From Escherichia coli (lineage in GTDB: Bacteria; Pseudomonadota; Gammaproteobacteria; Enterobacterales; Enterobacteriaceae), in the NCBI RefSeq assembly GCF_024298765.1, contig NZ_CP101210.1: 64,000 bases of DNA; one strand, 5' to 3'. The number at the start of each line of letters is the position of its first letter. Within the stretch, counting starts at the first letter, position 1. The translations under genes and the position numbers were made by a program. Shown piece by piece: positions 13,017 through 15,639 of the stretch. The notes under the pieces were generated by a model that was given only the letters and a program-made list of their open reading frames with translations, was not told where the DNA came from and ran no database searches.

Positions 13017-13059
13017 CTGCAGAACAATAGTAAGCGTCAACGGAGCACCGTATTGACGC

Positions 13060-14680
13060 TTATTTATTGGTGAGAACTACGTTCCATGGCAGGAGTTCGT
13101 CAACACGGTTGGAGGGCCATTCCGGCAGTACGCTCAGAATATGGCGCAGATACGCTTCCGGATCGATACCGTTCAGACGGCAGGTGCCGATCAGCCCGTA
13201 CAGCAGTGCTCCACGCTCGCCGCCGTGATCGCTACCGAAGAACACGTAATTTTTCTTTCCGAGACAGACTGCACGAAGCGCTCTTTCCGCTGTGTTATTG
13301 TCCGCTTCTGCCAAACCATCATCACTGTAATAACAGAGGGCGTCCCACTGATTCAGTACATAGCTGAACGCTTCGCCCAGTCTGGATTTTTTCGACAGCG
13401 TGCCATTCTTCTCCACCATCCATTCATGCAGCGACGTCAGTAACGCTTTGCTTCGCTGCTGCCTGACTGCAAGACGCTCTGACTCTGGTAATCCCCGTAT
13501 TTCATCCTCGATGGCGTACAGTTCACTGATTCGCTTCAGGGCTTCTTCTGCCATCGCACTTTTGCTGCTGATGTATACATCGTGGATTTTTCTCCGGGCA
13601 TGAGCACAGCACGCAACTTCTGTCAGCGCACCACCTTCGCGTTCTGCACTGAACAGCCTGTCGTAACCTGTGAACGCATCCGCCTGCAGGATACCCCGGA
13701 AGGGGCGGAGGTGTTGCTCCGGGTGTTTCCCCTGCCTGTTCGGTGAGTACGCGAACCAGACCGCCGGAGGAGATGACGAACCCGCATTGCGATCATCCCG
13801 GACATACGTCCAGATGCGCCCTGTTTTCGTCTTTTTCAGGCCCGGTGCCAGTACCTTTACCGGTGTGTCGTCAGTGTGAAGCTTGCGGGTATTCATCACA
13901 TAACGATACAGGGCATCATTCAGCGGCGTCATTAACTGGCAGCACGCGTCAACCCAGTTGGAGAGTAATGCACGGCTCAGTTCGACACCCTGTCGGGCAA
14001 AGATTTCACTCTGACGATACAGTGGCAGGTGTTCGCAGTATTTTCCCGTAAACACGCGGGCAAGTAATCCGGGGCCCGCGATACCACGCTCTATCGCGGC
14101 GGGACGGCGCCGGTGCTTCAACGATGCAGTCACATTTTGTACAGGCTTTTTTTACCCGTTCTGTGCGGATCACTTTCAGAGCGCTGCTCACCAGTTCCAG
14201 TTGTTCTGCACTGACTTCCCCCAGATAATCCAGCTCACCGCCACACTCCGGGCAACAGCTTTCTTCAGACTCCAGACGGTGTATTTCACGGGGAAGGTGT
14301 GCCGGGAACGGACGACGATGGCGCGACTGCCGCAACTGGCGGGGAACCTGTGGATCGTCTTCCCGCCCACTGTAACGATCGCTGTCCTGTTCGCGTTGTT
14401 TCAGCAGGGCCTCAGCCTGTTCAACTTCACGACGCAGTTTTTCAGAACAGGTACCGAACAGCATCCGGCGCAGTTTTTCTATCTGAGCCCGCAGATGTTC
14501 TATTTCCCGTTCATCTTCTTCGATCTTTTCTTCGGCACGTGCCAGTGCAGAGCGCAGGAAGGTCTTCGTCTCTTCAACCAGACTCAGTTGCTGGTCTTTC
14601 TGACGGAGCTGGCTTTCCAGTTCTGCAATGCGAATGAGGTATTTCTGACTCATGGCCGTTTTTATAATGCGGCCAGGCAT
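13060..14680 (-). pseudogene. IS66-family transposase TnpC, split by a frameshift (14006..14680 N-terminal part and 13060..14133 C-terminal part)
   Basis: N-terminal coiled-coil plus Cys-rich zinc-finger region and C-terminal DDE region lie in different frames, overlapping at 14006-14133. Confidence 0.75.
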
Positions 14681-14683
14681 TTT

Positions 14684-15034
14684 TTACAACATTGTCAGTG
14701 AGTTAAGGCGGAATGTTTTTGGCTGACGCCAGTCCAGCTTATCGAGGAGCATTGCCAGTTGCGAGCGGGTAATGGATACCTTACCGTCACGCACCGCAGG
14801 CCAGATAAACTGGCCTTCCTCCAGGCGTTTGGTGAACAGGCACAGACCATCAGCATCGGCCCAGAGTATTTTAACAGTGTCACCCCGTCGGCCACGAAAG
14901 ATAAACAGGTGACCTGAGAAGGGGGTCTCATCCAGCACATGTTGTACCTGTTCTCCCAGACCGTTGAAGGATTTACGCATATCGGTAACGCCGGCCACGA
15001 GCCAGATGCGGGTACCTGATGGGAGTGAGATCAT
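14684..15034 (-). CDS. IS66-family Orf2 (TnpB), 116 aa
   Basis: Recalled similarity to IS66 Orf2 (MISLPSGTRIWLVAGVTDMRKSFNGL...). Confidence 0.8.
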   Translation of the reverse strand: MISLPSGTRIWLVAGVTDMRKSFNGLGEQVQHVLDETPFSGHLFIFRGRRGDTVKILWADADGLCLFTKRLEEGQFIWPAVRDGKVSITRSQLAMLLDKLDWRQPKTFRLNSLTML

Positions 15035-15103
15035 CTTCCCCTCCCGGTCAGTTCACGGATCAACACCGTGAGCAGCTCTGGTGAAGGATTTCCCAGTGTC
15101 ATT

Positions 15104-15325
15104 TTACCGTAATGGAATAGTTGGAGGCATTCTACGAGAAATACGTCCTTCTCTTTGCCAGAGACGTAGCCATTTAAAAATCAGGTTGTTATCAACGCCA
15201 TGTTCCCGGGCCAGTTGTGCAACATTGGCATTTGGTTTCGAAGCCAGTTCAACCATATGAAGCTTAAATTCATTAGAAAATATCCGGCGCGTCCCAGAGC
15301 GCCAGTCTGTAGGTTTATCCATCAA
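15104..15325 (-). CDS. IS66-family Orf1 (TnpA), helix-turn-helix protein, 73 aa
   Basis: HTH-like sequence typical of IS orfA proteins; first gene inside the IS66 right end. Confidence 0.6.
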   Translation of the reverse strand: MMDKPTDWRSGTRRIFSNEFKLHMVELASKPNANVAQLAREHGVDNNLIFKWLRLWQREGRISRRMPPTIPLR

Positions 15326-15639
15326 TAGAACTCCGTCTAATTTAGAAGGAGCTCTAATTTAGTCTGCAAGGATCAGGAGTTACAGACGGCATTGGCTTTA
15401 CGCTTACGAACAATATCGACTGCGAATCGGGAATTATCTTTGACAACGATGAGGATAAAACAGATTCGGCAGTACTGTTTCCCTGGATTGAACGTGCATG
15501 TCAGGACGTTCGCGAGCTGTGTCAGTTTCAACGTCTGCAAAAGACCCGTACAGATTAACTCCCTGTCCGTACTCATTACACACATACACGTGCCAGCCCC
15601 CACCGGCTGGCGCTTTGCTTTGTATAAAGGAAATAAATA

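What the first reader, a model, noticed from the sequence alone, without database searches (positions are those of the whole stretch)
13017..15407. IS66-family element with frameshifted tnpC, abutted by IS630
The IS66 element keeps tnpA and tnpB, but tnpC is split into two overlapping frames (14006..14680 and 13060..14133). The IS630 right end (13016) lies only ~13 bp from the IS66 terminal repeat (13030), giving an IS cluster. Two decayed insertion sequences side by side may mark a past rearrangement or deletion boundary, possibly the event that removed the island integrase.
Basis: partly seen in the sequence, partly recalled or inferred. Interest (0 to 1): 0.35.

Follow-up and report, generated by a model that had tools for sequence, protein, structure and literature searches.

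The report
Two dead insertion sequences, simple insertions
Two inactivated insertion sequences (IS630-type and IS66-type) sit 6 bp apart inside an already-dead small gene at the edge of a well-known E. coli pathogenicity island; both are clean, ordinary insertions and do not mark a deletion or rearrangement.

Summary
An IS66-family element occupies 13030-15407 (minus strand). An IS630-family element occupies 11904-13013, and 14 bp separate the two. tnpB is intact. tnpA is not kept: it has a 143-bp internal deletion. The IS630 copy has a 43-bp deletion.

Both elements have perfect target-site duplications: TA within CTAG for IS630, and GAACAATA for IS66. Two complete E. coli genomes carry the exact IS-free site at the same aspV locus (...GATTGCC-TA-GCTGCA-GAACAATA-TCGAC...). 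So these are two independent simple insertions into a DUF957-family pseudogene, with nothing lost or rearranged.

The IS-free genomes also have no integrase next to aspV. A 200-aa integrase gene lies about 19 kb away at the other side of the module.

The element is not ISEc8 (67% TnpC identity). It is an ISEc23/ISEc47-type isoform (95% amino acid, 95.7% nucleotide). Intact 2520-bp copies exist at 97.3% identity.

About 190-200 of 5,426 complete genomes share the same locus with the same lesions, including CFT073, Nissle 1917 and ATCC 25922. This is ordinary, already-annotated IS decay.

The parts
11904..13013 (-). IS630-family element, 1110 bp. Intact relatives are 1153 bp. Defective because of a 43-bp internal deletion (junction about 12293/12294) that splits the 343-aa transposase into ORFs 12226..12912 (HTH domains) and 11924..12271 (DDE_3).
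   Evidence: Inverted repeat I1. Alignment to the intact LH50-c copy, 97.9% identity. Pfam. PGAP flags it 'frameshifted'.
11902..11903 (.). Left copy of the TA target duplication of IS630 (within C-TA). The right copy is at 13014-13015 (TA-G). Together they reconstitute the CTAG target.
   Evidence: Sequence. The empty site shows a single CTAG.
13014..13015 (.). Right copy of the TA target duplication of IS630.
13016..13029 (.). 14 bp of host DNA between the two ISs: GCTGCA plus the left copy of the IS66 8-bp target duplication GAACAATA (13022-13029).
13030..15407 (-). IS66-family element, 2378 bp. It is an ISEc23/ISEc47-type isoform; intact copies are 2520 bp. Both termini are intact.
   Evidence: Terminal inverted repeats (I20). 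Alignments to intact copies L003 and L009. The repaired element matches 2520-bp copies contiguously at 97.3% identity.
15408..15415 (.). Right copy of the IS66 8-bp target duplication GAACAATA.
15104..15322 (-). tnpA remnant of 72 codons; only the HTH_Tnp_1 part remains. A 143-bp deletion at 15118/15119 shifts the frame. The intact protein is 144 aa.
   Evidence: PGAP flags it 'frameshifted'.
14684..15034 (-). tnpB, intact, 116 aa (TnpB_IS66, PF05717).
13060..14653 (-). tnpC pseudogene. One extra base at about 14097 splits the 530-aa reading frame. It also carries W349C (13606-13608) in the conserved CWAHARR motif.
11857..11903 (+). 5' piece of the DUF957-family pseudogene, the target of both insertions. 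It ends in the TAG nonsense codon (TGG in the intact paralogue).
15416..15558 (+). 3' piece of the same DUF957-family pseudogene. PGAP annotates 15364-15558 as a CDS whose first 15 codons lie inside the IS66 end.

Best explanation
Two unrelated insertion sequences transposed independently into the same small gene. One is an IS630-family element (TA duplication at a CTAG). The other is an IS66-family element of the ISEc23/ISEc47 type (8-bp duplication).

The target was a DUF957-family gene at the aspV-proximal end of a PAI-aspV-type island, and it was already dead. In the original sequence the two insertion points are 6 bp apart. The gene's TGG-to-TAG nonsense mutation itself created the CTAG that IS630 used.

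Each IS is now inactive through small lesions:
- IS630 has a 43-bp deletion between 8-bp repeats.
- IS66 has a 143-bp deletion in tnpA, one extra base in tnpC, and W349C in the CWAHARR motif.

The locus is now an immobile fossil inherited with the island in about 190-200 sequenced E. coli strains, including CFT073, Nissle 1917 and ATCC 25922.

Shown here: element boundaries, target duplications, the empty site, the lesions, and the distribution. Inferred: that the lesions arose in situ after insertion, and that the copies cannot transpose on their own.
For: - Boundaries and duplications.
- Exact IS-free allele at the same aspV locus in two genomes.
- Lesions defined against intact copies. IS66 against L003 and L009. 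IS630 against L007.
- Domain content of the ORF fragments.
- The TAG codon is present in the empty site, and the intact CFT073 paralogue has TGG.
- The tnpA deletion junction occurs in 190 records of 190 genomes, so never in two records of one genome.
- The IS630 deletion junction occurs in about 205 genomes.
- 170 genomes carry the whole 4.5-kb arrangement.
- The same locus is in Nissle 1917 and CFT073.
- PMC6778807 uses the same logic. Matching 8-bp flanks indicate an un-rearranged IS66 copy, and mismatched flanks indicate IS-mediated deletion.
- TA duplication is the IS630/Tc1 family rule, and Tenzen & Ohtsubo's CTAG preference is cited in PMC2170065.
Against: - No genome with only one of the two ISs was found. 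The order of insertion is therefore unknown, and a single complex event cannot be formally excluded.
- Two insertions 6 bp apart are unlikely under uniform random targeting, so some local preference or relaxed selection must contribute.
- Loss of mobility is inferred from sequence and has not been tested.
Confidence: 0.93

Rival explanations
1. One reading: the IS pair marks an IS-mediated deletion, inversion or other rearrangement boundary. This might be the event that removed the island's integrase.
For: IS clusters often do mark such boundaries. No integrase lies between the island end and tRNA-Asp.
Against: - Both elements keep matching target duplications.
- The in-silico excised sequence exists uninterrupted at the same locus in two genomes.
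- Those IS-free genomes also lack an integrase next to aspV.
- A 200-aa integrase gene lies at the far side of the CP4-like module, about 19 kb away.
Confidence: 0.02
2. The tnpC 'frameshift' is a sequencing error or a programmed frameshift or slippage site, and the element is functional.
For: An A7 run lies about 55 nt upstream of the extra base, at the point where the downstream frame opens.
Against: - The 20 best-matching complete assemblies listed, from different laboratories and hosts, are 99.9-100% identical over the full 4.5 kb. PGAP flags tnpC as frameshifted in each of the four strains whose annotation was read: 64.1, Nissle 1917, CFT073, and the separate decayed copy in O157 strain PV15-279.
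- Intact relatives have one continuous 530-537-aa ORF with the same A7 run.
- Slippage at the A7 run would replace the second CxxC of the zinc finger.
- tnpA is independently destroyed by a 143-bp deletion.
Confidence: 0.02
3. The IS66 copy is a non-autonomous element that can still be moved in trans by intact relatives, such as the ISEc23 copy in the same island. This reading is compatible with the best explanation, so its confidence is not additive with it.
For: Both terminal repeats match those of an intact copy: the first 15 nt at the left end and the last 46 nt at the right end. An intact ISEc23 with 95% TnpC identity sits in the same island.
Against: The 143-bp deletion junction is found in only one record per genome across 190 genomes, so there is no sign of spread.
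Confidence: 0.1
4. The clustering is targeted. One IS created or marked a preferred site for the next, or the locus is a structural hot spot. It would then not be merely neutral accumulation in dead DNA.
For: The insertion points are 6 bp apart. CFT073 and Nissle 1917 carry a third IS (ISEc45) inside this tnpC, and CFT073 has a fourth (ISEc10) in the neighbouring DUF5983 pseudogene.
Against: All neighbouring genes (DUF5983, DUF957, DUF4942) were already pseudogenes before insertion, so relaxed selection alone explains the retention of insertions. IS630 simply needs a TA in CTAG, which the nonsense mutation supplied.
Confidence: 0.15

Closest known systems
ISEc23 / ISEc47 group of the IS66 family (names as used in RefSeq PGAP annotation)
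   Same: - tnpA-tnpB-tnpC order.
- Termini begin GTAAGCG.
- 8-bp target duplication.
- The repaired TnpC is 95% identical to the ISEc23 TnpC in the same island.
- The repaired element is 95.6-95.7% identical over its whole length to ISEc47-annotated elements. It is 97.3% identical to intact, unnamed 2520-bp copies in strain 720632.
   Different: - This copy lacks 143 bp of tnpA, has one extra base in tnpC, and carries W349C.
- It has a 21-bp in-frame difference near the TnpC N-terminus compared with the 2541-bp ISEc43 and ISEc47 copies.
ISEc8
   Same: Same family and the same gene order.
   Different: Only 67% TnpC identity over 381 aa. Megablast matches to elements annotated ISEc23, ISEc47, IS682 or ISEc43 are far closer. 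This is not an ISEc8 copy.
IS630 (Shigella/E. coli IS630 family; Tc1/mariner superfamily)
   Same: - TA duplication in a CTAG target.
- Terminal inverted repeats.
- HTH plus DDE_3 transposase.
- The intact relative is 1153 bp between its TAs and encodes a single 343-aa ORF.
   Different: A 43-bp internal deletion leaves a frameshifted pseudogene. The copy is 88.8% identical to ISEc33-annotated copies and 97.9% identical to the nearest intact copy.
PAI-aspV of uropathogenic E. coli CFT073 (100-kb island at aspV carrying tosRCBDAEF)
   Same: - In strain 64.1 (100% identical to the window), the island runs from aspV to yafV, about 105 kb. It carries pic, a tos-like T1SS/RTX cluster and cdi-like genes.
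- CFT073 carries the same IS630/IS66 pair at the same place.
- Island size and tos content in the literature: PMC3573123 and PMC5956150.
   Different: CFT073 and Nissle 1917 have an additional ISEc45 in this tnpC, and CFT073 has an ISEc10 in DUF5983.

Membership tests
IS66 family | Transposase TnpC with IS66-type DDE domain plus zinc-finger and leucine-zipper N-terminal region | tested here: met
   PF03050 E=5e-96, PF13817, PF13005 and PF13007, found on the two ORF fragments.
IS66 family | Accessory genes tnpA and tnpB upstream of tnpC, with tnpB of the TnpB_IS66 type | tested here: met
   tnpB is intact (PF05717, E=2.5e-36). A tnpA remnant (HTH_Tnp_1) lies upstream and overlaps tnpB in the repaired element.
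IS66 family | Imperfect terminal inverted repeats beginning GTAAGCG (family consensus, from my own knowledge) | tested here: met
   13030 GTAAGCGTCAA / 15407 GTAAGCGTAAA on the opposite strand.
IS66 family | 8-bp target-site duplication | tested here: met
   GAACAATA at 13022-13029 and 15408-15415, with a single copy in the empty site. The 8-bp rule is cited in PMC6778807.
IS66 family | Autonomous transposition, which needs intact tnpA, tnpB and tnpC (Han et al. 2001, from my own knowledge; the paper is not held) | tested here: not met
   tnpA has a 143-bp deletion and tnpC has a 1-bp insertion. The copy is a family member by descent but is defective. Activity itself cannot be tested with these tools.
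ISEc8 (specific element) | High identity to ISEc8 (ISfinder isoform convention of roughly 95% or more amino-acid identity or 90% or more nucleotide identity, from my own knowledge) | tested here: not met
   67% TnpC identity.
ISEc23/ISEc47 group | Isoform-level identity to named elements | tested here: met
   95% amino-acid identity to the ISEc23 TnpC. 95.6-95.7% nucleotide identity over 2520 bp to ISEc47-annotated copies. ISfinder itself was not available.
IS630 family | TA target duplication (preferentially in CTAG), terminal inverted repeats, and a single HTH plus DDE transposase | tested here: met
   TA/TA in CTAG. 20-nt inverted repeats (I1). HTH_23/HTH_32 and DDE_3 on the two fragments. 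The intact relative encodes a single 343-aa ORF.
IS-mediated deletion or rearrangement junction | Non-matching flanking target sequences, or flanks that are not contiguous in related genomes | tested here: not met
   The target duplications match, and the flanks are contiguous in strains 23CRST035 and A39.

The most novel reading that the evidence does not exclude
The spot may be a genuine insertion hot spot and not only a tolerant graveyard. The nonsense mutation created a rare CTAG that captured IS630. The IS630 end, or the local DNA structure, then favoured the IS66-type insertion 6 bp away. Later ISEc45 and ISEc10 inserted in the CFT073/Nissle lineage. The defective IS66 copy, whose ends are intact, might also remain mobilisable in trans by the ISEc23 in the same island.
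Probability: 0.15. Interest if true: 0.2.

Novelty: already known. Interest (0 to 1): 0.06.

Why it matters
It matters little biologically. The pair is a fossil inside a pseudogene, and it is already annotated as frameshifted transposase pseudogenes in RefSeq genomes, including CFT073 and Nissle 1917.

It has some practical value:
- It is a stable lineage marker for this version of the aspV island, with fixed lesions and one copy per genome.
- It corrects the idea that this IS cluster explains the island's structure or its missing integrase.
- It flags an annotation artefact: the 'DUF957 domain-containing protein' CDS starts inside the IS66 end.

Tried and rejected
- I searched 5,426 complete E. 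coli genomes for intermediate alleles, either IS630 only or IS66 only. None covered 80% or more of either junction query, so the order of insertion stays unresolved.
- I considered rescue of tnpC by transcriptional or ribosomal slippage at the upstream A7 run. I rejected it because the resulting protein would lose the second CxxC of the zinc finger, and because intact relatives have one continuous ORF.
- I considered ISEc8 identity and rejected it.
- The reconstructed 67-aa DUF957-like product gave no Pfam hit at E<=0.001. Its family assignment rests on PGAP annotation of it and of its paralogue.
- Han et al. 2001 (PMC95320) is not held, and a first literature search for IS66 features found nothing useful.
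- The first script failed because loci fetched in parallel calls were not all copied to the script machine. I used the alignment tools instead.

Full report
**Context.** The window is E. coli chromosome. Positions 12000-16500 are 100% identical to strain 64.1 (NZ_CP059917.1) and 99.9% identical to Nissle 1917 and many other strains. The finding lies at the aspV-proximal end of a genomic island. The gene order is antirestriction, RadC, DUF987, YeeU antitoxin, CbtA toxin, DUF5983 (frameshifted), IS630, IS66, DUF957, DUF4942 (internal stop), tRNA-Asp (16619-16695, minus strand), dnaQ. In strain 64.1 the island runs about 105 kb from aspV to yafV. It carries pic, a tos-like type I secretion/RTX cluster and cdi-like genes. 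This matches the 100-kb PAI-aspV of CFT073, which harbours tosRCBDAEF (PMC3573123, PMC5956150).

**The observation.**
- They carry the N-terminal (LZ_Tnp_IS66, zf-IS66) and C-terminal (DDE_Tnp_IS66 at E=5e-96, DDE_Tnp_IS66_C) halves of an IS66 transposase.
- tnpB (14684..15034) is an intact 116-aa TnpB_IS66.
- The element ends are GTAAGCGTCAA at 13030 and its imperfect inverted copy ending at 15407.
- To the left lies an IS630-family element with 20-nt inverted repeats at 11901-11920 and 12997-13016. Its transposase is split into an HTH fragment (12226..12912) and a DDE_3 fragment (11924..12271).
- The 'abutting' is therefore correct. Only 13016-13029 separates the two elements.

**The lesions.** I aligned the IS66 copy with an intact ISEc43-annotated element, and then with an intact 2520-bp copy from strain 720632. 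That copy encodes a 144-aa TnpA, a 116-aa TnpB and a 530-aa TnpC. There are exactly two length differences.
- A 143-bp deletion lies inside tnpA (junction 15118/15119). It leaves 72 codons, essentially the HTH_Tnp_1 part.
- One extra base sits in tnpC at about 14097 (CCCGCC[G]CGATAG).

Undoing these two changes restores all three ORFs. The repaired 2520-bp sequence then matches full-length copies contiguously. It is 97.3% identical to copies on the chromosome and three plasmids of strain 720632, and 95.6-95.7% identical to ISEc47-annotated elements.

The repaired TnpC still differs from the intact one at 13 positions. One of them is W349C, in the CWAHARR motif that ISEc8, ISEc23 and the 720632 copy all conserve.

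The IS630 copy differs from an intact 1153-bp relative (343-aa transposase, 97.9% identity) by a 43-bp deletion between two CGGGACAG repeats.

**Which IS66?** It is not ISEc8. TnpC identity to an ISEc8 copy in the same island is 67%, against 95% to the ISEc23 copy. At the nucleotide level the tnpB-tnpC part is 94-95% identical to ISEc23 and ISEc47.

**The interpretation.** The test for an IS-mediated deletion or rearrangement is whether the flanking target duplications match and whether the flanks are contiguous elsewhere. PMC6778807 applies this same logic to IS66. Here both conditions point to simple insertion.
- The IS66 copy is flanked by GAACAATA at 13022-13029 and 15408-15415.
- The IS630 copy is flanked by TA at 11902-11903 and 13014-13015, inside C-TA...TA-G. 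This is the family's TA duplication at its preferred CTAG target (PMC2170065 and the Tenzen & Ohtsubo reference cited there).
- I removed both elements and one copy of each duplication in silico and searched 5,426 complete E. coli genomes. Two genomes, 23CRST035 and A39, contain the reconstructed 803 bp uninterrupted at 98.4% and 97.9% identity, at the same position next to tRNA-Asp and dnaQ.
- The junction in those genomes reads ...GATTGCC-TA-GCTGCA-GAACAATA-TCGACTG..., exactly as predicted.

Both ISs are therefore simple insertions, 6 bp apart in the original sequence, and nothing was deleted or rearranged.

**The integrase.** The IS-free genomes already have the DUF4942 pseudogene abutting tRNA-Asp with no integrase. 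The missing integrase next to aspV therefore has nothing to do with these ISs. In strain 64.1 a 200-aa 'site-specific integrase' gene sits on the far side of this CP4-like module, about 2 kb beyond the left edge of the window.

**What the target was.** Joining the flanks gives a 67-codon DUF957-family gene with an in-frame TAG (MTSLITETALEILIA*LQNNIDCESG...). The TAG is present in the IS-free alleles too. An intact paralogue in CFT073 has TGG at that codon (...ATT GTG TGG CTG CAG...). So the gene was already dead, and the nonsense mutation itself produced the CTAG that IS630 used. The neighbouring DUF5983 frameshift and DUF4942 internal stop are also shared with the IS-free genomes. The ISs landed in a stretch that was already decaying.

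**Distribution and history.**
- A 60-bp probe across the tnpA deletion junction finds full matches in 190 records of 190 genomes.
- The IS630 deletion-junction probe finds about 205 single-piece matches.
- 170 genomes contain the whole 4.5-kb arrangement.
- Carriers include CFT073, Nissle 1917 and ATCC 25922.
- No genome has only one of the two ISs, so their order is unknown.
- The deleted IS66 copy never appears in two records of one genome. The simplest reading is that the lesions arose in place after insertion and that the copy has not moved since. This step is inference.
- CFT073 and Nissle 1917 have since gained an IS110-like ISEc45 inside this tnpC. CFT073 has also gained an IS21-like ISEc10 in DUF5983.

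**Alternatives considered.**
- A sequencing error or a programmed frameshift in tnpC is very unlikely. The 20 best-matching complete assemblies are 99.9-100% identical across the whole locus. Intact relatives have one continuous ORF. Slippage at the upstream A7 run would destroy the zinc finger.
- Trans-mobilisation by the intact ISEc23 in the same island remains possible in principle, because both ends are intact. There is no trace of it.
- Targeted clustering cannot be excluded, but it is not needed, because the whole neighbourhood is pseudogenised.

**Verdict.** This is an ordinary, already-annotated pair of dead insertion sequences in a well-studied island. The descriptive observation is mostly right, with three corrections: tnpA is not intact, the start coordinate is 13030, and the element is not ISEc8. 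The proposed significance as a rearrangement boundary or the cause of integrase loss is refuted.

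Noticed in passing
window 15364-15558 (+): The RefSeq CDS 'DUF957 domain-containing protein' (WP_001313570.1) starts inside the left end of the IS66 element, which ends at 15407. It is a chimeric ORF made of 15 IS-derived codons plus the 3' two-thirds of the interrupted DUF957 pseudogene, so it is probably an annotation artefact.
   Followed up: partly
window 11900-11903 / 13014-13016; L005 12400-12420; L010 990-1010: The IS630 target CTAG was created by the TGG-to-TAG nonsense mutation of the DUF957 gene. The intact paralogue in CFT073 has GTG TGG there, which contains no TA.
   Followed up: yes
window 13606-13608 (-): TnpC W349C in the CWAHARR motif, which is conserved in ISEc8, ISEc23 and the intact 720632 copy. 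This is a third probable inactivating change in the IS66 copy.
   Followed up: partly
L012 1261-4413 (Nissle 1917); L013 1753-4004 and 5797-8837 (CFT073): In Nissle 1917 and CFT073 an IS110-like ISEc45 is nested in the 3' part of this same tnpC. CFT073 also has an IS21-like ISEc10 in the adjacent DUF5983 pseudogene. That makes four ISs within about 8 kb.
   Followed up: partly
window ~452-4817 (+): An island-borne trio: a dynamin-family protein (798 aa), an RdcB-family protein and a patatin-like phospholipase. It resembles LeoABC or 'Dynamins'-type clusters. This resemblance is from memory and was not analysed.
   Followed up: no
window 11353-11845 (+) and 15640-16497 (+): DUF5983 (frameshifted) and DUF4942 (internal stop) are pseudogenes here and also in the IS-free genomes 23CRST035 and A39. 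The whole toxin-distal end of the module was decaying before the ISs arrived. The CbtA/YeeU toxin-antitoxin pair (10558-11356) is annotated as intact.
   Followed up: partly
L008 2057-2659 (NZ_CP059917.1 961056-961658), about 2 kb left of window position 1: A 200-aa 'site-specific integrase' gene lies at the far side of the CP4-like module. No full-length integrase is annotated at either end of the ~105-kb aspV-yafV island.
   Followed up: partly
L011 2714-5049, 10044-14942, 15629-18045: The same island holds three more IS66-family elements. An intact ISEc22 is inserted in a hemagglutinin-repeat (cdiA-like) gene. An ISEc8 is split by an IS21-like ISEc12. An intact ISEc23 lies next to pic.
   Followed up: no
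L002 1531-3073 (plasmid of strain CI5 and related mouse-strain plasmids): A second decayed copy of the same IS66 isoform has different lesions: several small deletions, and a TGA at the same Trp349 codon. This shows independent decay of this isoform elsewhere.
   Followed up: partly
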